Of a DNA stretch of 19,983 nt, positions 709-16,379 are shown in pieces. Made by a program: the position numbers and the translations under genes. The notes beneath the pieces were generated by a model. It saw only the letters and a list, made by a program, of their open reading frames with translations. It made no database searches and was not told the origin of the DNA. The DNA is from an uncultured archaeon (GTDB taxonomy: Archaea; Asgardarchaeota; Lokiarchaeia; Sigyniarchaeales; SOKP01), in contig CAYUTF010000061.1 of NCBI GenBank assembly GCA_964447495.1, forward strand, positions 1 through 19,983, given 5' to 3'. The stretch's first letter is position 1. Every line of letters starts with the position of its first letter.

Positions 709-1260
709 CTACTCTTTTTTCTTTTTCCCTAAATTAATTTCTTTGCTCAACATTAATTGTGCGATTTTTTCAAAGGTGAGCTCAACATTCTCGCCAGTTT
801 TCGAAGAACATTCTATATACTCTGAAAAGTTGTGATCTTTGGCAAAACTCTTAGCTTCTGGTACAGAAACCGTCCGGGCTTGTTCAAGATCTAGTTTACT
901 TCCTAATAAGATAGTTTGGACCTCCTGACCGAAATTTCTATTCGTCTCATTAAAAACGGCTAACCAATTCTTTAAATTACCAAATGTTTTATATCGGGTA
1001 ATATCAAATAGAAAAAGTGTTCCGCTTGCTCCGTTAATGGCACCAGGTAAAAGAAATCGGAATTTCTCTTCTCCGGCAAAATCCCAGATCTGTAATGTAA
1101 CTTTTTGTCCATCTACTTCAAGTTTTTTTAAATAAAATTCCATTCCGATTGTAAGGGCATATTTTTCTTCAAATAAGCCTTCCATATAGCGATGTGTTAA
1201 TGTAGTTTTGCCAACTCCTGCGTCACCTAATATACAAAGCTTATATCTCAAATCGCTCAT
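709..1260 (-). CDS. Rab-like small GTPase (Ras superfamily)
   Basis: G1 GDAGVGKT, G2 TIGMEF, G3 WDFAGE, G4 SKLD, G5 CSSK; RabF-like IGMEF, LQIWD, KFRFL, LFDIT. Confidence 0.95.
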   Translation of the reverse strand: MSDLRYKLCILGDAGVGKTTLTHRYMEGLFEEKYALTIGMEFYLKKLEVDGQKVTLQIWDFAGEEKFRFLLPGAINGASGTLFLFDITRYKTFGNLKNWLAVFNETNRNFGQEVQTILLGSKLDLEQARTVSVPEAKSFAKDHNFSEYIECSSKTGENVELTFEKIAQLMLSKEINLGKKKKE

Positions 1261-1935: not shown

Positions 1936-3330
1936 TTAATTTAAATCTGATTTCAAAATATCTGCTCTTTCCTTCAAGATAGATTTAATAAAGTTCACAT
2001 TATTGGGATACCATTTTAATGCAAACGTCCATAATATAATTCCTGGTAAGATACATAAAATAATATAGAGAATAGTTTGTTGATAGTTATATTGTGTTAG
2101 AACTAAAAGTAATCCACTTAGAGCAGGTCCAATACCCCTCCCAAGGTTTTCTAAGAATTGATTCCAAGATACTATTTGCGCCTGAGCTTCGGGTAAATTA
2201 ATATATTGTAGAATAGGGCTTTGATTGACAATATATAGGGAAAATATAGACCTTGAAAAGAAAAATAGAGCACCCATCAACCATATTGTGGGAAATGACA
2301 TCAAAAAGAATACATCTTTTCCTTGTTCTATGCTTAAATGTGGCCAAGGTATAAAAAAGAACAGGGCAAAAGTAATAATCCCTCCAATTAATGCAAAAAT
2401 TATCATGAAGACACGAGCATTCATATATTTCTGAGCAAATTTATCGCTCAATCGTGAAAGGCTTAGTTGACCTGCAATTCCTCCTGTTAACCCAAAAAGG
2501 ACCATAAAGATGCTCGTGGAAAATTCTGAAATATTATGGGGTTCATTTTGGATTAAATTTAGAATTAAAAAGTTAATAGAGCCCATTAAAATCCATGTAA
2601 AGATTCCTTCAATTAAAGCAACAATATTAGTCTTACTAAACATCGTTCTTTTCATCATTTCTCGGCTGATCTTATAATCATAGGTTAGATTATCCTTTTT
2701 GAGAAGATGTATTAATTCTTCCTCTTGAGCACCGCGCTTAGGTTCCTCACTCAATATTTTATAAATGATTCCAAACATTATTATACCAATACCTGCAATC
2801 CAAAAAAACAGGCGCCAAAATCCTGTTTGCATAAAAAGAGCACCAATAACAAATCCAAATGTCATTGTTAAAGACCGAACAATCTCATAATTCCCAAAAA
2901 AACGAGACCTTTGTTCTTTCGGTACGATATCATTCGAAAGTGAAATAACAGTTGGCCAGCTCAATCCAGCAAAAACTCCAAACATCGAAATAAGGATTAA
3001 GAAGTAGATCCATGTGAATTCTTCGCCGCCCTCAATTCCAAATCCTAATAAAATGATGGCGATCCCCCTAAAAATAGATATTATAAATAAGATTTTCTTA
3101 CGCGAATATTTATCAATAAGAAACCCAAATAATAATCCTGAAATGGATGCCGCCCAAGAAAGGGTTGTGATCATGATACCCATTTCTAAAGCGTGGCTCG
3201 GATCTCCTGGCCAGATGATACGTGATATCGGAACAATAAGAAAGATGATACCACCCCACGCAATGCTTTGAAATCCATTTAAAAAGTAAATTGGCCAGAG
3301 AATAGAATTATATCGGTATTTTTGAGCCAT
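1936..3330 (-). CDS. MFS transporter
   Basis: About 12 hydrophobic segments; motif A-like GFLIDKYSRKK, plus DIVPKEQRSRFFG and SRLSDKF in the second half. Confidence 0.9.
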   Translation of the reverse strand: MAQKYRYNSILWPIYFLNGFQSIAWGGIIFLIVPISRIIWPGDPSHALEMGIMITTLSWAASISGLLFGFLIDKYSRKKILFIISIFRGIAIILLGFGIEGGEEFTWIYFLILISMFGVFAGLSWPTVISLSNDIVPKEQRSRFFGNYEIVRSLTMTFGFVIGALFMQTGFWRLFFWIAGIGIIMFGIIYKILSEEPKRGAQEEELIHLLKKDNLTYDYKISREMMKRTMFSKTNIVALIEGIFTWILMGSINFLILNLIQNEPHNISEFSTSIFMVLFGLTGGIAGQLSLSRLSDKFAQKYMNARVFMIIFALIGGIITFALFFFIPWPHLSIEQGKDVFFLMSFPTIWLMGALFFFSRSIFSLYIVNQSPILQYINLPEAQAQIVSWNQFLENLGRGIGPALSGLLLVLTQYNYQQTILYIILCILPGIILWTFALKWYPNNVNFIKSILKERADILKSDLN

Positions 3331-3446
3331 TAAAATCAGTAGTATGTTGCCTTAATATGCTAATTTAAAATGGTTTTTGAAATTTGAATCTATTGGAATT
3401 TTGGACGCTTTTGTTAATAAGGAAAGGAATTACTATAAAGAATATC

Positions 3447-5900
3447 TTAGTAAATGAATTGTGAAAGTTTCTTATGTTGGATTTTACGAATGGTAAAGTA
3501 AAGGATAATAAAAACTACACTGAAAAGGATGTATATAATTATATTGAAAAGTGATAGGAGCCAGCATGTTGTAATTCCAACGATTAATAATGCCATATAT
3601 ATGTAGAATCCATTCAAATGGTCTTTATTATTATCCCAAATAAAAATTGTCGCTCCAATTATGACTCCTAAATTGTATCCAATATTTATAAACTGTTTTA
3701 GATTACTATAATCCATTATCGCTAAAATAATTGCCCCAAAAAGGCCTATAATTAAGAAATAGAAGATATTATTATTGCCTTTCGCCTCATAAGCGGTTTT
3801 TCTTGCATTTGTAAGCCCATTTTTGTAAAGTGCCCAGAACACCAATGCTGTACTAAAAATTTTGAAGTAATAATGACCGAAGAAAAGATCAATATTATCT
3901 AAAAACGATAAATCAAGATGATATCCTAGGATTTGTAAGATTTCTAACATTGAATCAGGGACAGCAAACTCAAATGCAATATTAACAGAAGGAATAAGTT
4001 CTATAGAAAAAAGAGCTTTAAATGCGGCTCGAATTGACCAAATAAGATATATCATTACGAATATATCAAATATTTTGAAAGCTTTTTGCTTTACCATTAA
4101 TGTCGAGAGTTTGAAATATTTAGATACTGATGCAATAATACATAACCCAATTAAAAAATTTATAGATATAGCAATCAGAAACAGCGCTCCACTTAGTAGA
4201 GTATTATAAACTAAAAAATCAGTATCAATTATTGAAAATGTGATTAAACCTATCAAAGCGATTATTCCTGCATATAAAAAAGGTATCAAACTTCTGAGAA
4301 TTCTTTTATTATCAATAATTTTATCATAATGAGTTCCAATTTCCTCTTCAATTTTACATTTACTAGCAATCTGCATTAGGCGATCATATCGACTACCAGA
4401 TGATTTTAATGCCATTGATTGAAACTTACTCGATCCTTTAATGTTTAATGGATTTCCTTTCAATAGAATCCTTTTTAAGCTCACTAAATCTCCAATTGAA
4501 TCAGGCAACTCTTTTAATTGATTATTCTCTAAATTTATAATTTCTAATTGTTTCAGCTCTCCAATAGAATTTGGAATTGATAGAAGTTTGTTCTCATATA
4601 AATCTAATACTTTTAAAGAATCGAGTTTTCCTATAGAATCGGGGAGCTCTTGTAATTCACAAGAACTTAAATCTAACACTTCTAGTGATATCAGATTTCC
4701 AATACAAGAAGGTAATTTATTTAAAGTTCCTTTATAGAAGATTGGTGGTGCTTCAAGATATAGTGATTTAAGATGCCTTAAATCACAGATAGAATCGGGT
4801 AATTCATTTAAGGGATTATTTTCAATATTTAAATGCTCTAAACTGTCGAGATGTCCCAATTGATCAGGTAAAGAAGTTATATAATTATTTTCTAAATGCA
4901 AACTCTTTAGATTCTTTAAATCTTTTAAATCCTCTGGAAGATTGGATATATTTGTTAGAGACAAATCCAAAAATTCGAGGTTTTTTAGTTGAAATAAAGT
5001 TTCTGGGACTTTTCCAAGTGGATTACATTTCAATGTTAACTTTTTTAAAAATTTCAAGTTTTTAATATTGGTAGGTAAGTCCTTTAAGTCGCAATTAAAT
5101 AACCCTAATCCAATTAACGTACCATCTTGAACTACTATTCCAAAGGAATCATTCTCACAACTGTATATTCTTGGAAGTCCATTTCTTTTAAGCTTCTTTA
5201 AATCATATTGTGTCTTTATGTGAGGGTTTTTGCTATTATTGAAAATAAGCTTTTCAATTTCTTGTAATGTATCTATCTCATAATTATTGAGATTATACCT
5301 ACTATATCTATTAGATGGTTGATTGAGTAGATTATCTTTTCTATCTATTAATCTTTTTATTATATCATTGAAGAGGATATCAACATTCTTTCCTGTTTTG
5401 GCCGAGTTATAATAAAATTTAAAGTTATTTTCTTTTAAATAAAAGCCAATATATTTTGACGCATCTGGTATAAGTTTAGGATGCAAATCTGCTTTATTTC
5501 CTGCGATGCTTATCGGAATCTCATGCAAATCGTCTTCAATATATTGATTAAACCACTTTTTAAAATCTCTAACGTTAATATGACTTTTTAATTCCTTGAC
5601 AATGATTACAGCATCAGCATTTTTTAATATTTTTTCTCTTAGTGGTGAAACTTGAGAACTTAAACCTCCCGTGTCCCATATAATTAAGTTTACTTTGACT
5701 CTCTCCTCGAATATTAAGGTTTTTTTAATGATTTTAAATCCTACTGTAGGATGATGAAACTCAGTAAAGGTATTTTCAAGAAATTTTTGTATTAAGGATG
5801 ATTTTCCCGATTGATAATCTCCAAGGATTATAATCTTAAATGTATAATTTCCTTCCGATAAAGCTGAAGCGTTAATTTGCTTATTAATTTGAGAATTCAA
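3447..5900 (-). CDS. Small GTPase (Rab/Roc-like) + leucine-rich repeats + C-terminal multipass membrane domain fusion
   Basis: aa ~19-186: GDYQSGKS, TVGF, WDTGG, NKAD, SAK. aa ~260-487: about 9-10 LPxxIGxLxxLxxLxLxxNxL repeats. aa ~535-805: 7-8 hydrophobic helices. TTG start is uncertain. Confidence 0.88.
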   Translation of the reverse strand: MNSQINKQINASALSEGNYTFKIIILGDYQSGKSSLIQKFLENTFTEFHHPTVGFKIIKKTLIFEERVKVNLIIWDTGGLSSQVSPLREKILKNADAVIIVKELKSHINVRDFKKWFNQYIEDDLHEIPISIAGNKADLHPKLIPDASKYIGFYLKENNFKFYYNSAKTGKNVDILFNDIIKRLIDRKDNLLNQPSNRYSRYNLNNYEIDTLQEIEKLIFNNSKNPHIKTQYDLKKLKRNGLPRIYSCENDSFGIVVQDGTLIGLGLFNCDLKDLPTNIKNLKFLKKLTLKCNPLGKVPETLFQLKNLEFLDLSLTNISNLPEDLKDLKNLKSLHLENNYITSLPDQLGHLDSLEHLNIENNPLNELPDSICDLRHLKSLYLEAPPIFYKGTLNKLPSCIGNLISLEVLDLSSCELQELPDSIGKLDSLKVLDLYENKLLSIPNSIGELKQLEIINLENNQLKELPDSIGDLVSLKRILLKGNPLNIKGSSKFQSMALKSSGSRYDRLMQIASKCKIEEEIGTHYDKIIDNKRILRSLIPFLYAGIIALIGLITFSIIDTDFLVYNTLLSGALFLIAISINFLIGLCIIASVSKYFKLSTLMVKQKAFKIFDIFVMIYLIWSIRAAFKALFSIELIPSVNIAFEFAVPDSMLEILQILGYHLDLSFLDNIDLFFGHYYFKIFSTALVFWALYKNGLTNARKTAYEAKGNNNIFYFLIIGLFGAIILAIMDYSNLKQFINIGYNLGVIIGATIFIWDNNKDHLNGFYIYMALLIVGITTCWLLSLFNIIIYILFSVVFIILYFTIRKIQHKKLSQFIY

Positions 5901-6036
5901 GAGCCTTTTTCCAATGGATAGTATATTAGAAAATCTAAATATAAGATGTATGTTATTTCATAGTGATAATAAATCAATTTTTTTTTAATTCTTGCTTTTC
6001 AAAAACAAAAAAATAGGCTGTTTTTCTCCTAATTCT

Positions 6037-7239
6037 TTACCAAATACTAATTTTATTTCTAAGAATTACAAAAAATACCACACCAAATAAAGCTAAACCT
6101 GTTAAAAAGAAAAATCCGATATCAATCCCGAAAGTTGCTATATATCCTATTACAATCGGAGAAAAAAAGTAGCCAAAACCAACTATTGTCTCAAAGTAAA
6201 CGCTATATTTTGAAGTTTTGTTAATTATATTTTTAAAAACTATCAATTTGAATGAAAACGTATAATTAATAGATAAGAACATGCCAAAAGTAAAGAATAA
6301 AAATCCAAAAATAATGATATTTTGATTAATAGCCATTAAAAAAAGGCTACAAAATACAATCATAATTGAGAAGGGCAATAATTTCTTTAATCGTGCAATA
6401 TTAAAATCCATTGATTTTGCAATAGTAATCGTTTGAGAGGAAAGTCTAAAGGCATAAAATAAGTAGTTTGTAAATAGTGAAAAATTCAAAAGATTTGATT
6501 TTAGGGGATAGACTAATCCTACTCCTCCAATTAAAAAACTATATACGCCAATCATTACAAGGGGAATATACAATGGAAAGGAGACTTCTTCATTCTTAGG
6601 AATGGCTTTTACACCTTTATCCATTGGGATTACGGGCTCTGATTCAAGATTAAAATTTGGATTTTTAATAAAAAAAGCAAAAATAACTCCAATGATTGCA
6701 AAAATTAGTGAAAACTTAAACATAATAAGATTATCATCAATAAAGAAGAGAATACAAGTTCCTAAAATAAAGCCGAAAATTCCTCCTGAATTCCATGATA
6801 GACTATAAGTTTTCATTAACTTATTTTTTTGAACAGTATTATCTTTATATTCATTCTGATCCAATATTGTAGAGATTGTGCTCGCTAAAACTGGCCAAAA
6901 AAAACCTAAGAGAATCCCATCAGAAATTAAGAGAATAAATATAATCAATGGGTATAAATTAAACTGCAGAATGATTTGAATAACCAACGCGCCTGATGAA
7001 GAGATTATAAGGGTTAATTTTAATCCCAACTTGTTATGAATATTACGAAATATTAACGGAGAAAATAGATAAGCCATTGCTGTACCAGAAGTGATAATTC
7101 CAATGATTTCGGAGCTAAGATCTATCCCTATTAAATATAATGGGATTGCTAAACCAATTGTTACACTTATTGCGATTCTGAAGAACGCGGAAAAGAGAAT
7201 TGGAAGGAGATTATAACCTTTTTTCCCCACTAAGTACAT
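6037..7239 (-). CDS. MFS-like transporter
   Basis: About 12 hydrophobic helices in two halves with a central loop; degenerate motif A (RNIHNKLGLK) and YSLSWNSGGIFGFILG. Confidence 0.82.
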   Translation of the reverse strand: MYLVGKKGYNLLPILFSAFFRIAISVTIGLAIPLYLIGIDLSSEIIGIITSGTAMAYLFSPLIFRNIHNKLGLKLTLIISSSGALVIQIILQFNLYPLIIFILLISDGILLGFFWPVLASTISTILDQNEYKDNTVQKNKLMKTYSLSWNSGGIFGFILGTCILFFIDDNLIMFKFSLIFAIIGVIFAFFIKNPNFNLESEPVIPMDKGVKAIPKNEEVSFPLYIPLVMIGVYSFLIGGVGLVYPLKSNLLNFSLFTNYLFYAFRLSSQTITIAKSMDFNIARLKKLLPFSIMIVFCSLFLMAINQNIIIFGFLFFTFGMFLSINYTFSFKLIVFKNIINKTSKYSVYFETIVGFGYFFSPIVIGYIATFGIDIGFFFLTGLALFGVVFFVILRNKISIW

Positions 7240-7818: not shown

Positions 7819-8751
7819 ATGATAAGCATGCGAAAAGAACAAAATTATGTAACTCTTATGGGTAAAAAAATATTCATCCAATCTAAGGAAAATTTACCTC
7901 AATTAGCACAGTATGATTTTTTACCCATCTGGGATACTAATCTGAGGAGAATATCTGAACTTGAAGGATTAGAAAAATTACATGATCTTGAAGGCCTAAT
8001 TGTCGTTGAAATATACCTAATGGAAATCGATGGGCTTGAAAAACTCACTAATTTAAAAGAATTGCGAATAGTTGGAAGTGAATATCTTACCAAAATAAAA
8101 GGGCTTGATACGTTAACTAACTTAGAAATTCTAGATCTTGGGTGCAATTGTTATATTGACAAAATTGAAGGTTTAGATAATCTTCAAAACCTTAAAGTAC
8201 TTAATTTTGGCACAAGTTATTTTGATTGTGAGGGTGGATTTGTAATGAAAATTGAAGGCCTTGATAATTTAACTAATTTAAGATGGCTAAATTTTAATAG
8301 TAATGGCATTAGTACCATTGAAGGTCTTGAAAATCTTAAAAATCTCCGATATCTCTCTTTTATGGCAAATATGATTACAAAAATACAAGGTCTAGACTCC
8401 CTTGTGAATCTTGAATTCTTGGATTTATCGGAGAATAAAATTGAACATATTGAAGGCCTCAATTCATTGATAAATTTAAAGCATCTTAATTTAAAACATA
8501 ATAATATTTCTGAGATACAAGGTCTTGATAAGCTCCAATCATTAAGAGAACTTAACCTATTCGATAATAAAATTCAATAAATTGAAGGTATTGATCACAA
8601 TCTTAACCTACAAGAATTAGATGTTCGTCAGCGGCACAATATGTTTCCATCTTTTTCCAAGAAAAATAAACCTGAAAAAAGGTATTATTCACGAGAAGAG
8701 ATACTGCCTTATCTTAAAAATTTGAAAAAATTAGAAAAATTCAATGACTAG
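7819..8751 (+). pseudogene. SDS22-like leucine-rich repeat gene interrupted by an in-frame TAA at 8578-8580 (253-aa ORF 7819-8580 may be expressed truncated)
   Basis: About ten IEGLxxLxNLxxLxLxxNxI repeats. After the TAA the same frame continues IEGIDHNLNLQELDV...EILPYLKNLKKLEKFND to TAG 8749-8751. Confidence 0.8.
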
Positions 8752-10083: not shown

Positions 10084-11748
10084 ATGAATAGTATGGAACT
10101 GAATGAAATAGAAGCTGCTAAAAAAATTGATGAAGATGAGCTAACCGAAACTGAAAAGGAAAAAATGAAAGGAGAGTTAGAGCTTGGTAAGCGTCATCAA
10201 AACTGGATGTATCAACTATTAAAATACAATCCAATTGACCCTATAAATGATGTTTATCGTCAAGCTGTAAAGCGATTAAATGTAGAAGATAAAGAGGGAC
10301 AACTTCAATGGTGGGCAGCATATATTTATGTAAAATGGTTCGTGAGGACATTATGGAATTTTAAGGCGATCTATCCGAAAAAAAACATGTTTCCTGAATT
10401 TGGACCTGGCGTAGTGGTCTCTAATCACCAATCTCATATAGATCCTTTCCTTCTTGGTGCTGCATGCCATCGCCGCATTAGATTTATGAGTAAACTTGAT
10501 AATTTTAAAACTCCTTTAGTAAGGACATTATTTTCGAATTTAGGTGCTTTCAAAGTGGATCGTGAGCACCCTGAAGCTGGTTGGGAGCGCGCGCGACAAG
10601 TTATTAGAAAAGGTGATTGGGTGGGAATCTTTCCGGAAGGCACCCGTAGCAAAGATGGTGAGTTAGGAGAGTTTAAGACGGGAGCTGTAAGATTAGCAAT
10701 TGAGATGGATGTACCTATTGTCCCCATGGGGATTGTTGGTTCTCTAAATGCATTACCTAAAGGAAATTTAATGATGAAACCCACACAAATAATTGTTCGG
10801 GTTGGTGATCCTATTTATTATGACAATTATGATATTAACACAGTGACCTATGAAGAAATACATCGGTTAAATGATGAACTACGAACTATCATTTTTGAAT
10901 TAAAGGAAGGGACATACGGTAAAGTCGAGGAGGGTCTCTCTATCGGAAGTGTTGAAGATATCGAAAGAGTTCCAAAACTTACTTTCAAATCATATATGAA
11001 AGATTTAGGGAAAAGCATTTTAAGGTTAGTGGATGATACCTGGTATGCATTTCTTAAAAGTTTAGAAGTTTTCGGGCTTCGAGATACATTCCAAGAGGCG
11101 GTTCAGAATTTTTCAGGATGGTTGGTTCATAATTGGAGTGACCTCATGTTACCCTATAAAGTCATTGATTATGATAAGTATATTCCCGACTCTGGTGCTG
11201 CTATCCTTTGTACCAATCACAATTCCGAATGGGATGTTATAATGACAGCGACGAGCATGATCTATCATAAGCATCGTGTGATTTATCAAATGTCGAAACA
11301 AACATTATTTAAACCTCCGGTAGTTAATGCATGGATTCGTAATCATCACGCGTTTCCTCTAAAGCGTGGGCAAAGCGACCGAGATTCCTATAATTATGCG
11401 GGGTACCTTTTAGATAATGGTCATATCGTTATGATCTATCCTGAAGGTACTACTAATCTTGGCGAAGGGGAATTATTAGAGGGCCATACCGGAGCTATAC
11501 GTCTTGCAATCGAGAAGCAAGTTCCAATCTTACTAATTGGTATAACTGGTACAGAACATACTTACCCAAAGCACGCTAAGATGTTAAACTTTTATAAGGG
11601 TCAAATCTTTAAAGCAGGACCAGCCTTTATGGAACATCAGCAATATTGGGGCAAACCAGTGCCTGACTATGATGAACTTAAGCGATTAACCGCGAATATG
11701 ATGGCTCAACTAAAAGAATTACTCATGTATGACACTCCAGATGCGTAA
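10084..11748 (+). CDS. Tandem double-domain glycerolipid acyltransferase (two PlsC/LPLAT domains)
   Basis: Domain 1: NHQSHID (HxxxxD), FMSK, FKVDR, IFPEGTRS, FKTG. Domain 2: NHNSEWD, QMSK, FPLKR, IYPEGTT, GHTG. Starts 4 nt after the HAD stop. Confidence 0.93.
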   Translation: MNSMELNEIEAAKKIDEDELTETEKEKMKGELELGKRHQNWMYQLLKYNPIDPINDVYRQAVKRLNVEDKEGQLQWWAAYIYVKWFVRTLWNFKAIYPKKNMFPEFGPGVVVSNHQSHIDPFLLGAACHRRIRFMSKLDNFKTPLVRTLFSNLGAFKVDREHPEAGWERARQVIRKGDWVGIFPEGTRSKDGELGEFKTGAVRLAIEMDVPIVPMGIVGSLNALPKGNLMMKPTQIIVRVGDPIYYDNYDINTVTYEEIHRLNDELRTIIFELKEGTYGKVEEGLSIGSVEDIERVPKLTFKSYMKDLGKSILRLVDDTWYAFLKSLEVFGLRDTFQEAVQNFSGWLVHNWSDLMLPYKVIDYDKYIPDSGAAILCTNHNSEWDVIMTATSMIYHKHRVIYQMSKQTLFKPPVVNAWIRNHHAFPLKRGQSDRDSYNYAGYLLDNGHIVMIYPEGTTNLGEGELLEGHTGAIRLAIEKQVPILLIGITGTEHTYPKHAKMLNFYKGQIFKAGPAFMEHQQYWGKPVPDYDELKRLTANMMAQLKELLMYDTPDA

Positions 11749-11769
11749 TTGGTAAGGGGTTTCTTTACG

Positions 11770-12846
11770 ATGGAACTTAGTGAACATAGTGAGAGAACGA
11801 GATATAAAGTAGGGATACCGAGAGCTCTACACTACTATCGTTATTATCCATTTTGGAAAAAATTATTAGAAGAATTGGATGTTGAAATCATATTAAGCCC
11901 TCAAACAAATAAGAAAATCGTTGAAGAGGGAGTCACTCATGGTTTTGGTGAACTGTGTATCCCCGTAAAAATATATTACGGTCAAGTGCTAAAATTAATC
12001 GAGGAAAATCCCGATTTAGACTTTCTATTTGTACCTCGATATGTCTCAGAAGATCAAGATTCGTATTTTTGCCCGAAATTTTTATCCCTACCTGATGTAA
12101 TTAAGATTCTACCGGAAGTACCAAAGATTTTAAATTTTGAAGTAAATGTAAAAGAATTTCCTATTGCTACTTCTGCTGTAGAACTTGGTAAACAGCTCGG
12201 TAAAGGTCAAAATGCCTCTCTTGACGCTTATAAAAAAGCCCAAGCCTATTTTGATGAATACCATGAATTTTTACGCCAAGGGGGTTCTGTGAATCACGCA
12301 TTACGTTTAGTCCAGCGAAATATTCCCTTTAAACTACCAAAAAAGAAAATTCAAGGGGATATCAGATTTCTATTGCTCGGTCATGCGTATAACATATTTG
12401 ATACCTTCATTAATTTAGATTTTATTAAAAAATTACAAGATCAAGATGTGGAAGTTCTCACAATTGAAAACATCCCTGAGTTTATCTTTAAAGAACCGGT
12501 CATCGTAAATCCAAGGGGCGGAATCCTAAGAAATTACTGGCGCCATGAGGAGGAAATAATGCAAGCCATACGATTTTTCCTAACAAAAGGACGAAATGAA
12601 ATAGATGGTGTTATTTTTTTAATTAGCTTTGCATGCGGTCCTGATAGTCTTATCTCAGAATTAATTATGCGCGACATGAAAGTTGTCGGGTTGCCCTTTT
12701 TGGAGATCATAATGGACGAACATTCAGGTGAGGCGGGTATGATGACTCGGATCGAAAGCTTTGTTGAGATGGTCCGCCGAAAAAGAAAAAAATTGGGATT
12801 AGAACCGAGATGGAAAGCGAAAATTAAATTTTATCAGACAACATAA
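11770..12846 (+). CDS. DUF2229 / acyl-CoA dehydratase-reductase-like Fe-S subunit (PlsA C-terminal-type domain)
   Basis: KVGIPRALHYYRYYPFW, ELCIPVKIYYG, FCPKF, FACGPDS, DEHSGEAGMMTRIESF. ATG 11770, preceded by GGTAAGGGGT, is preferred over TTG 11749. Confidence 0.88.
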   Translation: MELSEHSERTRYKVGIPRALHYYRYYPFWKKLLEELDVEIILSPQTNKKIVEEGVTHGFGELCIPVKIYYGQVLKLIEENPDLDFLFVPRYVSEDQDSYFCPKFLSLPDVIKILPEVPKILNFEVNVKEFPIATSAVELGKQLGKGQNASLDAYKKAQAYFDEYHEFLRQGGSVNHALRLVQRNIPFKLPKKKIQGDIRFLLLGHAYNIFDTFINLDFIKKLQDQDVEVLTIENIPEFIFKEPVIVNPRGGILRNYWRHEEEIMQAIRFFLTKGRNEIDGVIFLISFACGPDSLISELIMRDMKVVGLPFLEIIMDEHSGEAGMMTRIESFVEMVRRKRKKLGLEPRWKAKIKFYQTT

Positions 12847-12982
12847 TTGTTTCTAAGATTAAACTATTCCTTCTATTTATTTATTTTCATCTTAGAAATC
12901 TGATGTAGTAGTGTATTAAAAGGCTTTAAACTTACTTCCCTACTTTTGGATATCAAATGAATTAATTACTATTATTTACTCT

Positions 12983-13004
12983 TTCTTTCTTGCCTTCTAC
13001 ATTT
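12983..13004. repeat. Imperfect 22-bp inverted repeat, left arm (partner 14456-14477)
   Basis: ttctttcttgccttctacattt; its reverse complement matches 14456-14477 at 21/22 positions. Confidence 0.5.
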
Positions 13005-13156
13005 GAATACTTAATCTCTTTTTTATTAACTAAGTTGTGCATTTTCTCGTTATGTGCTCCATAAATTCCTACACATAGTCTTAGTTTTATTAAAATTTTG
13101 GTATATTTTTAATAGAACTATCATACTTTTGAGATTCTGAACGTAATGGGTAATTT

Positions 13157-13164
13157 TTTATATA
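13157..13164 (+). promoter_or_regulatory. Candidate TATA box for the 13233-16585 transcription unit
   Basis: tttatata about 70 nt upstream of ATG 13233 in a 386-bp intergenic gap; no clear BRE. Confidence 0.3.
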
Positions 13165-13232
13165 AGATTGTGTTATTTATTCAAATACCAAGTTAAGTAA
13201 AATGTAAAACACCCACAAAAAACAAATAAATA

Positions 13233-14420
13233 ATGCTCATATCCTTTCCGAATATGGGATCCAGCTGGGTCGCATTCAAAACACTGTTCACGGCATTAGA
13301 TTTAGAAGTTGTCCTTCCCGACCCTACAAATCGAGAGGCAATCAAAATCGGAGTTAAACATAGCCCCGAATTTGTATGTTTTCCATTTAAAGCTACAATC
13401 GGGGATTTTGTGAGTTCTATTAAGAAGGGAGCCGATACTCTTGTAATGGCAGTTGACTGTGGTCCATGTCGCTTCGGATTTTATGCGAGTGTACAAGAGC
13501 GCATTTTAAGGGATATGGGATACAAAAATGTAAGGGTAATTCCTTTGGATCAGGCAGATCTTCTTGAATTTCACTGGGTCAAGACCCTCCAAGAATTGAG
13601 CGGTCGAAGGGATTTGTTTATCTATTCAAAATTTGTTAAAGCCGTAATTTATTTCTTGAAAAAATCAAAATTGCTCAATGACATTCAAACTGCGGAAGGT
13701 TTATTCCGTGCTTATGAACGTAATTTAGGCGACACAACTCGAGTAATTAATGAATTGTTGCAGAAATTAGATAATGCAAATTCGTTGTCAGAATTACGTA
13801 GCTTCAAAAAAGTGATAAAAGACGATTTCAATTCCATTGATGTTGATAAAACTAGAACTCCTTTAAGGGTTGGTCTTTCTGGTGAGATTCATATCAGTCT
13901 AGAACCGTATGTTAATTTAGATATTAGACGAAAATTGGGTGAGATGGGAGTTGAAATTCATCAAAGCCTAAGCCTTTATGATTGGGTGGTGCATAAATTT
14001 CATCTTAATTATCATCGAAAATGGCTCGAGCATTTAGCAAAACCTTATATGCCGATGGATATTGGCGGGGAATGTGTTTGGGTTCTTGGAGAATATATTG
14101 ATAAGGCAAACGCGGGGTTTGATGGATTTGTTCATTCGTATCCGTTTACCTGCATGCCCGAAGTAACCGCTCGAACAATTATAACCAATAAACTTAAGAA
14201 AATCTACGATCTTCCAATAATCTACTTTTCTTTTGATGAGCAGAGTGGTCAAGAGGGCTTTCGAACAAGATTAGAGGCGTTTTACGACTTAATGGAATCT
14301 AGACGGAATCAAGAAATTAAAAAAAACCCTGAATTTATGGCAAATGGAAAGAAGAAAATTTATCCGCATTACGGAGACGTTTTTTATAATGAAATCGCTC
14401 AATTAATTCAAGCAGAGTGA
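13233..14420 (+). CDS. 2-hydroxyacyl-CoA dehydratase D-component-like Fe-S subunit (PlsR-like)
   Basis: SFPNMG, SPEFVCFPFKATIGDF, CGPCRFGFY, LSGEI, PFTCMPE, FDEQSGQEGFRTRLEAF. Confidence 0.86.
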   Translation: MLISFPNMGSSWVAFKTLFTALDLEVVLPDPTNREAIKIGVKHSPEFVCFPFKATIGDFVSSIKKGADTLVMAVDCGPCRFGFYASVQERILRDMGYKNVRVIPLDQADLLEFHWVKTLQELSGRRDLFIYSKFVKAVIYFLKKSKLLNDIQTAEGLFRAYERNLGDTTRVINELLQKLDNANSLSELRSFKKVIKDDFNSIDVDKTRTPLRVGLSGEIHISLEPYVNLDIRRKLGEMGVEIHQSLSLYDWVVHKFHLNYHRKWLEHLAKPYMPMDIGGECVWVLGEYIDKANAGFDGFVHSYPFTCMPEVTARTIITNKLKKIYDLPIIYFSFDEQSGQEGFRTRLEAFYDLMESRRNQEIKKNPEFMANGKKKIYPHYGDVFYNEIAQLIQAE

Positions 14421-14429
14421 AGAGAAAGC

Positions 14430-15455
14430 ATGGTTGAAGTATCTGATAAAGTAAAAAATGAAGAAGGCAAGAAAGAAGCGTTCTTAGGGATTGATATAGG
14501 ATCGGTTTCCTGTAAATTTGTCTTGATGGATATCGATGGAAAAGTCCTGACAAGTGTATTTTTGCGAAATCGAGGTTCCCCTATAGATTCTGCGAAAGCA
14601 GGGATGGGAGAATTACGTGATAATATTGAAGAAAATACAGATTTGCATGATTATGTTATAAAATGTTGCGGGACTACCGGTTCAGCAAGGTATTTAACTA
14701 AGGCGGTCGTTGGTGGCGATTTAGCGAAGACGGAAATAATTGCCCATGCGGTTGCTACACAATCAATGTATCCTGATGTAAGAACCATTCTTGAAATTGG
14801 AGGGCAAGATTCGAAAATCATTATCCTTCGTGAAGGAATCATCGTAGATTTTTCGATGAATTCGGTATGCGCAGCAGGTACAGGCTCATTTCTTGATCAT
14901 CAAGCATCACGATTGGGCATTCCAATTGAGGATTTTGGAGATTACGCTATTCGAGCAAAAAACCCCGTGAGTATTGCCGGAAGATGTACGGTATTTGCGG
15001 AGTCAGATATGATTCACAAACAGAACGCGGGATTTTCGAAAGAGGATATTATTGCGGGTTTGTGTGATTCGTTGGTAAGAAATTATATGAATAATGTGGG
15101 AAAAGGAAAAGAATTGGAAGAGCCCGTGGTATTTCAAGGGGGAGTTTCGTATAATAAAGGAATTATTGAAGCATTTGAAAGACATTTGGGCTGTAAGGTT
15201 ATTGTACCGAAATATAATGTATTGATGGGAGCCCTTGGAATGGCAATCCTAGTCAGAGATTATTATCTTGAGAACGGCAGTGAAACTGTATTTCGGGGTT
15301 TAGAAGTATCTGATATTGAATTTAAGACATCTACTTTCTATTGTGGCGATTGCCCTAATAATTGTGAGATTGTACAGGTTAAAATGCCTGAACAGGATAA
15401 TAAGGTTATTGCGCGTTGGGGTTCACGTTGTGGAAAGTGGGATCAATTAACATAA
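14430..15455 (+). CDS. ATP-dependent CoA-enzyme activase (BadF/BadG/BcrA/BcrD, HgdC-like) with C-terminal Cys-rich module
   Basis: GIDIGSVSCK, TTGSAR, EIIAHA, EIGGQDSK, MNSVCAAGTGSFL, GRCTVFAESD, QGGV; tail FYCGDCPNNCEI...WGSRCGKW. Confidence 0.93.
   Translation: MVEVSDKVKNEEGKKEAFLGIDIGSVSCKFVLMDIDGKVLTSVFLRNRGSPIDSAKAGMGELRDNIEENTDLHDYVIKCCGTTGSARYLTKAVVGGDLAKTEIIAHAVATQSMYPDVRTILEIGGQDSKIIILREGIIVDFSMNSVCAAGTGSFLDHQASRLGIPIEDFGDYAIRAKNPVSIAGRCTVFAESDMIHKQNAGFSKEDIIAGLCDSLVRNYMNNVGKGKELEEPVVFQGGVSYNKGIIEAFERHLGCKVIVPKYNVLMGALGMAILVRDYYLENGSETVFRGLEVSDIEFKTSTFYCGDCPNNCEIVQVKMPEQDNKVIARWGSRCGKWDQLT
14456..14477. repeat. Imperfect 22-bp inverted repeat, right arm (partner 12983-13004)
   Basis: aaatgaagaaggcaagaaagaa, inside the 5' end of the activase gene. 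Confidence 0.5.
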
Positions 15456-15483
15456 TTTTAATATAATTAAAGGTGTATACAAA

Positions 15484-15678
15484 ATGGCAGAATTTATAAA
15501 GCAATTGAGAGAGAGGGGAGAAGACTTTTTCGATACTATCAAACATAAGATAAAGTTATCGACAATTTTTGACTTATACACTGAAAAGGTAATACCTACA
15601 TTCGTTTCTGAAAAAGATTTAAAGGAATATTATGAGAGACGGATGGAGGAAGTAAATAATTTTATTGATAAATTATAA
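15484..15678 (+). CDS. Small helical hypothetical protein (64 aa)
   Basis: Fills the operon gap (28 nt upstream, 14 nt downstream); AGGTG SD-like site before ATG. Confidence 0.8.
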   Translation: MAEFIKQLRERGEDFFDTIKHKIKLSTIFDLYTEKVIPTFVSEKDLKEYYERRMEEVNNFIDKL

Positions 15679-15692
15679 GAGAGGTTAAGAAA

Positions 15693-16379
15693 ATGGTAGA
15701 AAATACGGTAGAAAAGGAAACCAAAGGAAAAGAGAAGATGTTTAGCAAGGATTTGATGGAAGACTTACTCTATGGCACCGTAAAGGGACTTGGTGCGTTT
15801 GGTCTTACAGCTTTTGCTGATCTGAAGATAGAGGGGAAAGAGAATGTTCCTATCATGGGGAAAGCGATCCTGACTACGATAAGTGATAACGCATTAAGAG
15901 ATATGCTAATTATTAGTCAAGTGACGGGGAGAAGGATTCATTTTATGGTGCATCATAAACTTATGAAGAATCAAATGTATGGACCCGTTCTTAAATCGTT
16001 AGGGATGTTTCGGAGCACATTAGACAAAGAAGATACTGAGCCAATTGATAAAGTATTCCATTATTTAAATGAGGCCGGTGATCTTGTCGCGATGACTCCT
16101 GAATCTAAATTAGAGAAAGATATCCAAATAAAAGCGATGGCAGGAATTATTAAATTTGCCGTAGCGGGGGATGCTCCTATCATTCCGTTAGCAATTTACA
16201 CAGAAAAAACCAAGATCTTGAATTTGATCGATTCGCAAGGAATTAGAGTAAAAATCGGTACTCCTTTACCGGTGGAGAAGCGATTGAATCGTGAGAAATA
16301 TCGAGATCAAAGGTATGAACTTGCAGAGGATATTATTAATATCATTGATTCTCTAAAAATTCAGCCTATGGATGATTAA
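15693..16379 (+). CDS. PlsC-fold acyltransferase-like protein with degenerate catalytic motifs
   Basis: IEGKENVP, RRIHFMV, VAMTPE, APIIPLAI, IRVKIGTPL follow the PlsC pattern; HxxxxD is replaced by SDNALRD. GAGAGG SD upstream. Confidence 0.8.
   Translation: MVENTVEKETKGKEKMFSKDLMEDLLYGTVKGLGAFGLTAFADLKIEGKENVPIMGKAILTTISDNALRDMLIISQVTGRRIHFMVHHKLMKNQMYGPVLKSLGMFRSTLDKEDTEPIDKVFHYLNEAGDLVAMTPESKLEKDIQIKAMAGIIKFAVAGDAPIIPLAIYTEKTKILNLIDSQGIRVKIGTPLPVEKRLNREKYRDQRYELAEDIINIIDSLKIQPMDD

What the first reader, a model, noticed from the sequence alone, without database searches (positions are those of the whole stretch)
3447..5900. Small GTPase-LRR-multipass membrane fusion: a receptor-like architecture
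Seen: a complete G1-G5 GTPase at the N-terminus (catalytic Gln position is Leu, DTGGL), about 9-10 LRRs, then 7-8 predicted TM helices, all in one uninterrupted frame with no signal peptide. Established: Roco proteins are LRR-Roc-COR, so here the order is inverted and COR is replaced by a membrane domain; Asgard small GTPases generally lack prenylation. Inference: a membrane-integral GTPase switch with a cytoplasmic LRR scaffold, possibly a one-component signalling, trafficking or immune-like protein. I do not recognise this architecture.
Basis: partly seen in the sequence, partly recalled or inferred. Interest (0 to 1): 0.8.

Follow-up and report, generated by a model that had tools for sequence, protein, structure and literature searches.

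The report
Membrane-built Rab-like GTPase with LRR arm
This Asgard archaeal gene really encodes one protein that joins a Rab-like GTP switch lacking its catalytic glutamine, ten leucine-rich repeats and a conserved eight-helix membrane module of unknown fold, which bears on how Asgard GTPases reach membranes.

Summary
Window 3447-5900 (-) is one intact 817-aa ORF. It has a Ras/Rab-like G domain with G1-G5 present and Leu at the catalytic-Gln position, then ten 23-residue LRRs, then an 8-helix membrane module. The N-terminus and both LRR and G domain are predicted cytosolic.

It is not a misassembly. An independent metagenome run bridges both domain junctions, and 36 full-length relatives (42-50% identity) share the order.

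The family is narrow and patchy: 23 of 400 Asgard genomes, all in one GTDB family, one copy each. In this genome the gene is a roughly 2.6-kb single-gene insertion between two MFS genes that are adjacent in 14 same-genus genomes.

Many relatives carry an extra N-terminal Roadblock-like domain; this copy lacks it. The membrane module has no Pfam or PDB sequence match and no convincing fold match. Where fused, it is fused to LRRs, with or without the GTPase. Its outer acidic loop plus TM4 is the best-conserved part.

It is not a Roco protein: there is no COR domain and the G domain is Rab-like. Function is inferred only, as a GTP-latched, LRR-regulated conduit or sensor.

This scan found the long form twice before on other DNA. 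I found no paper describing the architecture.

The parts
3447..5900 (-). Whole gene: 817-aa GTPase-LRR-8TM protein (TTG start at 5900, stop codon 3447-3449)
   Evidence: ORF list and translation. 36 full-length relatives. Contigs of the independent run X2 cover the whole stretch with 0 differences.
5346..5843 (-). Rab-like G domain, residues 20-185
   Evidence: Pfam Ras 22-184, E 7.4e-25. Best PDB relatives are Rab5A (E 2.4e-20), Rab21 and Rab6. G1-G5 read in the alignment.
5799..5822 (-). G1 / P-loop GDYQSGKS (residues 27-34)
   Evidence: Sequence. G27, G32 and K33 are nearly invariant in A1.
5661..5675 (-). G3 DTGGL (residues 76-80), with Leu80 at the catalytic-Gln position
   Evidence: Leu or Phe in 37 of 37 G-domain-bearing rows of alignment A1. 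The own-genome paralogue keeps WDIGGQ.
5115..5345 (-). Linker / N-terminal cap of the LRR arm (residues 186-262)
   Evidence: Conserved motifs E208, A211, L215, E216, G241, P243 and G254. A similar N-terminal motif opens the GTPase-less LRR-TM proteins. No Pfam family, and no COR.
4419..5114 (-). Ten leucine-rich repeats (residues 263-494)
   Evidence: Pfam LRR_14 and LRR_8. Repeat register and per-column conservation. 69-nt DNA periodicity (family D1).
4296..4418 (-). Basic juxtamembrane helix (residues 495-535), predicted cytosolic
   Evidence: Helix 4-26 of the module model. 9.7 K+R on average. F493, K499, G502 and R507 are invariant.
3450..4295 (-). Eight-helix membrane module (residues 536-817), no known family
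   Evidence: Hydropathy. AF2 model with pLDDT 73.4 and eight long helices. No Pfam, NCBIfam or PDB sequence match. No convincing fold match.
3786..4001 (-). Outer acidic loop, TM4 and the following cytosolic basic loop (residues 634-705): the best-conserved stretch
   Evidence: Mean pairwise identity 0.73, against 0.46-0.58 for the other domains. The loop has 6.0 D/E and 0.3 K/R. E634, P637, N640, P648, G659, Y660, N669, D671 and H676 are invariant.
5901..6036 (-). The gene's own upstream spacer, unrelated to the ancestral MFS-MFS spacer; AT-rich, with a TATA-like TTATATTTAG about 35-45 nt before the start
   Evidence: Sequence. Alignment with the spacers of G239 and G232. The promoter reading is by eye only.
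3331..3446 (-). Downstream spacer, which is the retained 3' part of the ancestral spacer in front of the MFS gene 1936-3330
   Evidence: It aligns with the G239 and G232 spacers.
1936..3330 (-). Flanking MFS transporter gene (insertion-site marker, not part of the system)
   Evidence: Pfam MFS_1. Orthologues lie directly next to the other MFS gene in 14 same-genus genomes.
6037..7239 (-). Flanking MFS transporter gene (insertion-site marker, not part of the system)
   Evidence: Pfam MFS_1. Adjacency in relatives.

Best explanation
Shown or strongly inferred (about 0.9):
- The gene makes a self-contained membrane protein whose N-terminus, Rab-like G domain and ten-repeat LRR arm lie in the cytosol.
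- They are joined through a basic helix to a conserved eight-helix module with both ends inside.
- The LRR arm plus the membrane module is the recurring core. The G domain, and in many relatives a Roadblock-like domain before it, is an added regulatory head.
- The G domain keeps all nucleotide-binding motifs. It has a hydrophobic residue where the catalytic Gln should be, so it should bind GTP and hydrolyse it slowly or by another route.

Committed mechanism (inference, about 0.35-0.4):
- The membrane module is a gated conduit, a channel or carrier for a small cation. Its mouth is formed by the very conserved acidic outer loop and TM4, with polar residues inside the helices (N581, D612, R624, E634, H676).
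- The cytosolic LRR arm regulates it, as the cytosolic LRR domains are implicated in activating LRRC8 channels.
- The GTP-bound G domain acts as a latch on that arm, as the G domain does in FeoB.
- Where present, the Roadblock-like domain would set the nucleotide state, as MglB does for MglA. In this short copy that control is absent or supplied in trans.

The confidence given for this field (0.38) is for the committed mechanism, not for the architecture.
For: Architecture and integrity.

Topology:
- Family-averaged K+R per loop is 9.7, 4.4, 5.3, 2.8 and 2.3 on one side, against 0.1, 0.3, 0.7 and 0 on the other.
- The AF2 model has eight long helices.
- GTPase-less LRR-TM and LRR-TM-LRR relatives have hydrophilic N-termini without a signal peptide.

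The module is more than an anchor:
- Residues 634-705 have 0.73 mean pairwise identity, the highest of any part.
- There are many invariant polar residues.

Core is LRR plus module:
- Of the 23 representatives that match the module among 1.84 billion, 20 were scanned and 11 carry Pfam LRRs. These lie before, after or on both sides of the module.
- Four metagenome loci encode LRR-TM forms without a GTPase.
- P0134 is a 394-aa module alone on a 26-kb contig. This suggests the module can work by itself.

Hydrolysis-impaired head:
- Leu or Phe at the Gln position in 37 of 37 rows, while the nearest paralogue keeps GGQ.

Roadblock-like head in long forms: hhalign probability 92.3%, E 5.6e-7, 85 columns.

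Autonomy:
- No conserved neighbour across 19 + 14 loci.
- The gene sits here as a single-gene insertion.

Analogies, from abstracts in search listings only:
- LRRC8 is a transmembrane pore plus cytoplasmic LRR domains (PMC8440666).
- FeoB is a polytopic membrane protein with a regulatory, hydrophobic-substituted G domain and a GTP-gated-channel model (PMC3153494, PMC4847171, 10.1101/2020.08.16.253419).
Against: - No transport or channel family matches by sequence or profile.
- No transporter or channel fold matches convincingly. Foldseek's best E is 1.7 with TM-score 0.22 or less. The best VIA Z is 8.6, over one helical hairpin only.
- No internal repeat of the kind many carriers have.
- The outer loop, the key element of the model, is the least confident part of the structure (pLDDT 45-63).
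- Oligomer state, domain contacts, nucleotide binding and ion flux are all untested. Complex prediction and a full-length fold were not available.
- A sensor reading explains most of the same facts.
Confidence: 0.38

Rival explanations
1. One-polypeptide receptor switch. The eight-helix module senses an outside or membrane signal through its acidic outer loop. It passes this through TM4 and the conserved cytosolic loop to the LRR arm and G domain, which then bind or release cytosolic partners.
For: - The best-conserved stretch spans the outer loop, TM4 and the next cytosolic loop, as a transmission path would.
- Several LRR strand (presumed concave-face) positions are invariant or nearly so (E337, N338, N339, E383, D433, E453, N456). 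This fits a fixed protein partner.
- No transporter fold match.
- Polytopic sensor modules fused to cytosolic output domains are common in prokaryotes (recalled, not from a call).
Against: - A module that stands alone (P0134) has no output domain.
- No partner gene is conserved nearby.
- No similarity to known sensor modules or 7TM receptors beyond Z 6.2 or less over about 50 residues.
Confidence: 0.3
2. Plain anchor. The membrane module only tethers a Rab-like GTPase-LRR platform to the membrane, replacing the lipid anchors that Asgard GTPases lack. The work is done by the cytosolic parts, in trafficking, cytoskeleton or membrane identity.
For: - Loki GTPases have no CAAX boxes or prenyl transferases, and their mode of membrane association is an open question (PMC4917890, section 6 read).
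- The G domain is Rab-like.
- A related small GTPase gene, or an array of them, lies near the gene in the window and in L011, L019 and L064.
Against: - An anchor does not need eight helices, invariant polar residues within them, or a 73%-identical outer loop.
- The module occurs without any GTPase.
- The family is in only 23 of 400 genomes, so it cannot be the general solution.
Confidence: 0.13
3. Immune-like one-gene defence. The LRR arm senses an invader protein, the NTPase switches, and the membrane module kills or arrests the cell by permeabilising the membrane.
For: - Patchy, single-copy distribution.
- Arrival here as a single-gene insertion, with a different location in a same-genus genome.
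- The sensor repeat + NTPase + membrane effector logic resembles NLR-like systems (recalled).
Against: - No PADLOC family matches.
- No relative on viral contigs.
- Neighbours are metabolic or transport genes, not defence genes.
- LRRs are conserved (mean identity 0.58) rather than hypervariable, and the membrane part is the most conserved.
- No STAND NTPase.
Confidence: 0.1
4. Artefact: a chimeric assembly or a decaying gene.
For: - The copy sits on the longest branch of the family tree (1.02 against a median of 0.15).
- It starts at TTG.
Against: - Contigs of the independent run X2 bridge the LRR/TM junction (record 8, 3696-4572) and the G/LRR junction (record 12, 5076-6098) with 0 differences.
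- The same order of parts is seen in 36 relatives and 19 genome loci.
- P0001 departs at only 10 of 150 columns that are at least 95% conserved, all by conservative changes.
Confidence: 0.01

Closest known systems
Asgard Roadblock-GTPase fusion proteins
   Same: - The G domain's nearest paralogue in this genome is a 308-aa Roadblock-like + Ras-family protein.
- 23 of the 36 family members in the tree carry the same Roadblock-like head.
- Literature: Box 1 of PMC4917890, citing Klinger et al. [quoted passage not shown] Fig. 1f of PMC10933270 shows the domain architectures of small GTPases in MK-D1.
   Different: - Those proteins are soluble, with two domains, and the paralogue keeps the catalytic Gln (GGQ).
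- This family adds ten LRRs and an eight-helix membrane module and has Leu or Phe at that site.
- The window's own copy has lost, or never had, the Roadblock-like head.
Roco proteins (LRR-Roc-COR, e.g. LRRK2, C. tepidum Roco)
   Same: A Ras-superfamily G domain and LRRs in one chain. Pfam Roc matches residues 22-138.
   Different: - No COR domain, which is the defining tandem partner (PMC6337361, abstract in listing).
- The LRRs follow rather than precede the G domain.
- The G domain is closer to Rab than to Roc.
- It is membrane-integral.
FeoB (G domain fused to a polytopic membrane permease)
   Same: An N-terminal cytosolic G domain with a hydrophobic residue in place of the catalytic Gln, fused to a multi-helix membrane domain that it is thought to gate (abstracts of PMC3153494, PMC4847171 and 10.1101/2020.08.16.253419).
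   Different: - No FeoB_N, FeoB_C or Gate match in the window protein.
- The G domain is Rab-like, not TrmE/Era-class.
- An LRR arm lies between the G domain and the membrane.
- The membrane fold is unrelated as far as tested.
LRRC8 / volume-regulated anion channels
   Same: A polytopic membrane domain with cytoplasmic LRR domains in the same chain, where the LRRs are implicated in channel activation (abstracts of PMC8440666 and PMC13586329). Relatives here also have the TM-then-LRR order (P0127, P0129, P0133).
   Different: - LRRC8 has four pannexin-like helices and is a vertebrate family (recalled).
- Here there are eight helices, no sequence match, no fold match found, and an archaeal host.
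- This is an analogy only.
Lokiarchaeum Ras + 2 TM proteins (KKK46087, KKK46086)
   Same: Small GTPases of a Loki-type archaeon with predicted membrane helices in the same chain (PMC4917890, section 6 and Table S1).
   Different: Those have two helices at about residues 243-310, with no LRRs listed. They fit a hairpin anchor rather than a conserved eight-helix module.

Membership tests
Roco (Roc-COR) proteins | COR domain directly after the G domain | tested here: not met
   No COR family (PF16095, PF25497) at E <= 1. True Roco proteins in the same search list carry them (e.g. P0046, P0047).
Roco (Roc-COR) proteins | Roc-type G domain | tested here: inconclusive
   Roc PF08477 scores 67.8 bits, but Ras PF00071 scores 87.8 bits. 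The best solved relatives are Rab5, Rab21 and Rab6.
Roco (Roc-COR) proteins | Repeats (LRR) N-terminal to Roc | tested here: not met
   The LRRs are at 263-494, after the G domain at 20-185.
Ras superfamily / Rab-like small GTPases | G1-G5 nucleotide-binding motifs | tested here: met
   GDYQSGKS, T52, DTGG, NKAD and SAK. Ras family E 7.4e-25.
Ras superfamily / Rab-like small GTPases | Catalytic Gln after DxxG | tested here: not met
   Leu80 here. Leu or Phe in 37 of 37 rows.
Ras superfamily / Rab-like small GTPases | C-terminal Cys lipidation motif | tested here: not met
   The chain continues into the LRRs and the membrane module and ends ...KKLSQFIY.
Asgard Roadblock-GTPase fusions | Roadblock/LC7 domain before the G domain | tested here: not met
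   Only about 19 residues precede the G domain here, and no such segment lies in the window. It is met in the long orthologues: hhalign 92.3%, E 5.6e-7.
Asgard Roadblock-GTPase fusions | G domain of that lineage | tested here: met
   The best G-domain paralogue in the genome is the Roadblock-like+GTPase ORF on C10 (E 2.9e-29, 34% identity).
HAS-GTPases (descriptive class) | Hydrophobic residue in place of the catalytic Gln/His | tested here: met
   Leu80, with L or F in the family. Class definition taken from the abstract of 10.1101/2020.08.16.253419. K+ dependence was not tested.
FeoB | FeoB_N G domain and FeoB_C/Gate membrane domain | tested here: not met
   No such Pfam match for P0001 at E <= 1 or for the module members.
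LRRC8 / pannexin-like channels | Pannexin-like four-helix pore domain | tested here: inconclusive
   No Pfam match. Not among the fold-search rows, which does not exclude it.
LRRC8 / pannexin-like channels | Cytoplasmic LRR domain on the same chain as the membrane domain | tested here: met
   Topology by basic-residue bias and absence of a signal peptide.
STAND / NLR-like immune NTPases | NACHT / NB-ARC / AAA-type STAND NTPase | tested here: not met
   Absent from the Pfam list. No PADLOC match.
GPCR-like 7TM receptors | Seven-helix receptor fold | tested here: inconclusive
   Only partial matches: LPA1 at Z 6.2 over 51 residues, TAS2R14 at Z 4.0. Model pLDDT is 73.

The most novel reading that the evidence does not exclude
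The protein is a complete receptor-plus-G-protein in one chain. An outside signal read by the acidic loop of the eight-helix module sets the nucleotide state or exposure of a membrane-tethered Rab-like GTPase and its LRR arm. That would give a Loki-type archaeon a built-in, lipid-anchor-free way to mark and signal from a membrane. The membrane module would be a new fold.
Probability: 0.25. Interest if true: 0.85.

Novelty: new variant of a known kind. Interest (0 to 1): 0.6.

Why it matters
Asgard archaea encode scores of eukaryote-like small GTPases but none of the lipid-anchoring machinery. Whether and how these switches act at membranes has been an open question since 2016 (PMC4917890, section 6).

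This family shows one concrete answer in a few Loki-type lineages: the switch is built into a polytopic membrane protein. That gives a tractable test object with four parts:
- a G domain naturally carrying the hydrophobic substitution at the catalytic Gln position;
- a Roadblock-like regulator in cis in some copies and absent in others;
- an LRR arm, in a phylum whose many LRR proteins have no known function (10.64898/2026.10.28.762692, passages);
- a membrane module without any known relative.

It is narrow and accessory, so it does not explain Asgard GTPase biology in general.

Tried and rejected
**Structure tools**
Only the membrane module was folded. No full-length model was made.

**Fold and sequence searches of the module**
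- Foldseek against PDB gave 0 matches at E <= 0.001.
- VIA wide over 48,161 chains gave a best Z of 8.6, over a 59-residue hairpin only.
- The second look at Foldseek's top chains gave a best Z of 6.9.
- These results do not show that the fold is new.
- PDB by sequence and by profile found nothing.
- Pfam on 27 module sequences gave only scattered single hits at E >= 0.0015.
- hhalign of the module halves showed no internal repeat.

**Defence and mobile-element checks**
- PADLOC: no hit.
- Viral contigs: none.

**Conserved neighbours**
- None were found across L001-L019 and L053-L066. Only subclade synteny with housekeeping genes was seen.
- The flanking MFS genes are not conserved partners.

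**Insertion site**
- No flanking direct or inverted repeats around the insertion.
- The sigma-70 scan is not meaningful for an archaeon and showed no enrichment.

**Expression**
- No RNA holder is listed.

**Wider module searches**
- Profile searches for further architectures found nothing new.

**Literature**
- Seven searches and term look-ups in seven papers found no description of a GTPase-LRR-polytopic or LRR-plus-this-module protein.
- The supplements of the Asgard GTPase surveys were not read and may list it.
Full report
**1. What is in the sequence**

Window 3447..5900 on the minus strand is one open frame of 817 codons starting at TTG.

Pfam results:
- Ras covers residues 22-184 (E 7.4e-25).
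- Roc covers 22-138 (E 1.3e-18).
- Several LRR families cover about 260-490 (LRR_14 E 1.7e-31, LRR_8 E 6.9e-27).
- Nothing real covers 500-817.
- NCBIfam adds only small_GTP and sub-threshold LRR look-alikes.

The G motifs are all present: GDYQSGKS, Thr52 in PTVGF, WDTGGL, NKAD and SAK. Leu80 stands where Ras and Rab have the catalytic Gln.

I count ten LRRs between 263 and 494, nine of 23 residues and one irregular one of 29. Their 69-nt period also shows in the DNA.

The N-terminus is hydrophilic. The first hydrophobic segment starts at residue 533.

**2. Topology of the membrane part**

I averaged over 19 complete modules and took eight helices at about 539-559, 567-592, 611-633, 672-692, 711-730, 738-756, 764-783 and 785-806.

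| Side | Mean K+R per loop |
|---|---|
| One side | 9.7, 4.4, 5.3, 2.8, 2.3 |
| Other side | 0.1, 0.3, 0.7, 0 |

The 38-residue loop 634-671 on the K/R-poor side has 6.0 acidic and 0.3 basic residues. By the positive-inside rule, both ends, the LRR arm and the G domain are cytosolic, and the acidic loop faces out.

An AlphaFold2 model of residues 500-817 was built from a 27-row alignment. Its mean pLDDT is 73.4 and its pTM is 0.67. It shows a juxtamembrane helix, eight long helices at the same places, and three short helices in the outer loop. The outer loop is the least confident part (pLDDT 45-63).

**3. The gene is real and conserved**

The protein search listed 36 full-length relatives (P0002-P0035, P0037, P0038).
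- Identity is 42-50% and coverage 93-100%.
- Lengths are about 790-810 or about 935-965 aa.
- Where sources name them, they are called 'GTP-binding protein' of Promethearchaeota, Lokiarchaeota, Hodarchaeota or Hermodarchaeota MAGs.
- P0036 is an LRR-plus-module protein without a G domain.

Nineteen loci in species-representative genomes encode relatives. Seventeen are titled as Asgard MAGs and two as 'uncultured archaeon'.

Logan contigs of run X2, a sample other than the possible source, bridge both junctions with 0 differences:
- record 8 (3696-4572) bridges the LRR/membrane junction at 4295-4421;
- record 12 (5076-6098) bridges the G/LRR junction at 5117-5348.

The window's copy sits on the longest branch of the family tree, 1.02 against a median of 0.15. 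The tree has 36 rows; P0036 and the partial P0010 were left out. Even so, this copy departs at only 10 of 150 columns that are at least 95% conserved, and all the changes are conservative. Misassembly and decay are therefore excluded as far as sequence can tell.

**4. The G domain**

- Its best solved relatives are Rab5A (E 2.4e-20), Rab21, Rab6, Rab11 and Rab7.
- The top Rab5 chains read DTAGL at the aligned site. I recall these as the Q79L hydrolysis-deficient mutant.
- No COR family matches.
- In alignment A1 the residue after DxGG is Leu or Phe in 37 of 37 rows that have a G domain.
- The closest paralogue in the same genome is contig C10 (L040:952-1878, 308 aa). It has a Roadblock-like domain followed by a Ras-family domain and keeps WDIGGQ.

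The loss of the catalytic Gln is therefore a trait of the membrane-fused family. GTP binding should be kept. Hydrolysis should be slow or use another mechanism, as in the hydrophobic-substituted GTPases such as Era and FeoB (abstract of 10.1101/2020.08.16.253419).

**5. A Roadblock-like head in many relatives, but not here**

The long forms have about 140 extra N-terminal residues without a Pfam hit. I compared two profiles:
- 11 such segments;
- 12 Robl_LC7 domains of this genome.

The comparison gave hhalign probability 92.3% and E 5.6e-7 over 85 of 89 template columns.

No such segment lies in the window or within 8 kb in L002-L004 and L019. On the tree the long/short label needs six changes. 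Some of these may be start-calling differences.

MglB, a Roadblock dimer, acts as GEF and GAP for MglA (PMC10933270, passage). A cis Roadblock head may play that part in the long forms.

**6. The membrane module**

A phmmer search of residues 500-817 against 1.84 billion cluster representatives found only 23 proteins at E <= 0.001. Of the 20 scanned with Pfam:
- 11 carry LRRs before the module (P0049, P0124, P0136, P0137), after it (P0127, P0129, P0133, P0139) or on both sides (P0121, P0123, P0125);
- 9 are short proteins of 144-394 aa with no family;
- one of those nine, P0135, shows LRR-like sequence in its tail;
- the other three hits are P0036, P0014 and P0021.

Named distant members come from Helarchaeota and Lokiarchaeota MAGs. 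P0134 (394 aa, on a 26-kb contig) appears to be the module alone.

Metagenome loci add LRR-module(-LRR) genes of 753, 876 and 1160 aa, plus one truncated by the contig end at 683 aa or more. None has a GTPase gene in its flanks. The N-termini of these proteins are hydrophilic.

Conservation within the family, as mean pairwise identity:

| Part | Identity |
|---|---|
| G domain | 0.46 |
| Linker | 0.39 |
| LRRs | 0.58 |
| TM1-3 | 0.55 |
| Residues 634-705 | 0.73 |
| TM5-8 | 0.55 |

Invariant polar residues include N581, D612, R624, E634, N640, N669, D671 and H676.

Nothing matches in Pfam, NCBIfam or PDB by sequence or profile. There is no internal repeat.

Fold searches gave no convincing match:
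- Foldseek's best E is 1.7, with TM-score 0.22 or less.
- VIA over 48,161 chains gave a best Z of 8.6, covering only the last two helices.
- The second look gave a best Z of 6.9.

With a model of middling confidence, this does not prove a new fold.

**7. Distribution and history**

The module profile matched 23 of 400 genomes of the phylum.
- All are in the window's own GTDB family (22 of 134 besides G000). None of the 265 genomes of the 32 other families has a match.
- By genus the counts are 4/41, 1/6, 4/4, 3/10 and 10/54. Three of the last ten are weak fragments.
- There is never more than one match per genome.
- The own genome has one copy and no paralogue of the module.

The two MFS genes that flank the gene here are 2706 nt apart. 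In 14 same-genus genomes they are direct neighbours with gaps of 100-142 nt. In two more the gaps are 708 and 1172 nt. The closest example is G239, a 99%-complete genome without the module.

G264 has the module on another contig, yet its MFS genes are adjacent. The spacer after the gene (3446 to 3331) aligns with the 3' part of the ancestral spacer, whereas the spacer before the gene does not. The gene therefore arrived here as a roughly 2.6-kb single-gene piece with its own upstream region. No flanking repeats were seen.

Orthologues of the neighbours seen in L001-L004 lie on contig C13 of this genome without the gene between them. No neighbour is conserved family-wide.

**8. How it most likely works**

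Shown:
- the architecture;
- conservation of the module and LRRs;
- the missing catalytic Gln;
- the gene's autonomy.

Inferred:
- the topology;
- that the LRR-plus-module pair is the working core;
- that the G head regulates it.

I commit, at about 0.35-0.4, to a regulated conduit. The mouth would be the acidic outer loop, and the LRR arm and GTP-bound head would act as the cytosolic gate. My reasons:
- The module also exists alone.
- It has conserved charged residues inside its helices.
- The only known chains that join a cytosolic LRR domain or a G domain to a polytopic membrane domain, LRRC8 and FeoB, are conduits regulated from the cytosol (abstracts).

A receptor-type sensor is nearly as likely (0.3). 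A plain anchor (0.13) and an immune-like system (0.1) fit less well. Conservation of the module counts against the anchor. Conserved LRRs, no PADLOC hit, no viral relatives and ordinary neighbours count against the immune reading.

**9. Comparison with what is known, and novelty**

It is not a Roco protein: there is no COR, the order is reversed and the G domain is Rab-like.

It belongs by descent to the Asgard Roadblock-GTPase lineage, but it adds LRRs and a membrane module. Dey et al. 2016 noted two things:
- Loki GTPases lack lipidation machinery.
- Only two Ras proteins have two predicted helices each (KKK46087/86, Table S1), which is a different architecture.

A 2026 preprint states that Asgard LRR proteins are almost all of unknown function (10.64898/2026.10.28.762692, passages).

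None of seven literature searches, nor term look-ups in seven papers, produced a description of this fusion. I did not read the supplements of the GTPase surveys.

This scan noted the long form twice before on other genomes (e1-5590581 and e1-5499045). My results agree with their reading. One of those notes is marked 'part of it fell', without saying which part.

**10. Limits**

- No full-length model, no complex prediction and no Atlas search could be run.
- No RNA data were found.
- Nucleotide binding, topology, oligomer state and any transport or signalling activity are untested.

Noticed in passing
window 709-1260 (-); L011:11265-13845, L019:9811-12542, L064:1076-2172: A stand-alone 183-aa Ras-family GTPase lies 2.2 kb downstream of the gene. 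Its roughly 50%-identical orthologues form tandem arrays of 2-4 genes next to the family's gene in three other loci. This could be retained synteny or a functional link.
   Followed up: partly
window 3331-6036, against G239:C66:38708-41378 (L067) and G232:C121 (L068): The gene is a roughly 2.6-kb single-gene insertion between two tandem MFS transporter genes. Those genes are adjacent (100-142 nt apart) in 14 same-genus genomes. No flanking repeats or integrase were seen.
   Followed up: yes
G000:C10:3922-4848, i.e. L040:952-1878 (-): The own-genome paralogue is a 308-aa Roadblock-like domain + Ras-family GTPase with an intact GGQ. It is the closest relative of the window protein's G domain.
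   Followed up: partly
G000:C13:29373-33662: Orthologues of the genes that flank the family's gene in L001-L004 (an NTP transferase and a 98-aa ORF) lie here with an LRR protein between them, but without the GTPase-LRR-TM gene. This may be an emptied ancestral locus.
   Followed up: partly
window 7819-8580 (+): A 253-aa protein made only of LRRs lies divergent from the upstream MFS gene.
   Followed up: no
window 10084-16379 (+): A co-directional cluster holds a double acyltransferase (554 aa), two DUF2229/HGD-D-like proteins, a BcrAD/BadFG-type activator ATPase and another acyltransferase. It is preceded by a HAD hydrolase.
   Followed up: no
L007:7542-10387; L063:4022-6858: In two other genomes the family's gene is split into two ORFs, in L007 at the middle of the LRR arm and in L063 near the LRR/membrane junction. 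The cause could be a frameshift, a stop or an assembly error.
   Followed up: no
P0137 (943 aa, Lokiarchaeota MAG protein): A distant relative has a second hydrophobic block at residues 42-256 before its LRRs and the module, so its order is TM-LRR-TM. I did not test whether the first block is another copy of the module.
   Followed up: no
window 5876-5888: Two in-frame ATT codons (codons 5 and 9) follow the TTG start. Earlier notes on this genome report ATT starts for other genes, so the true start may be one of these.
   Followed up: no
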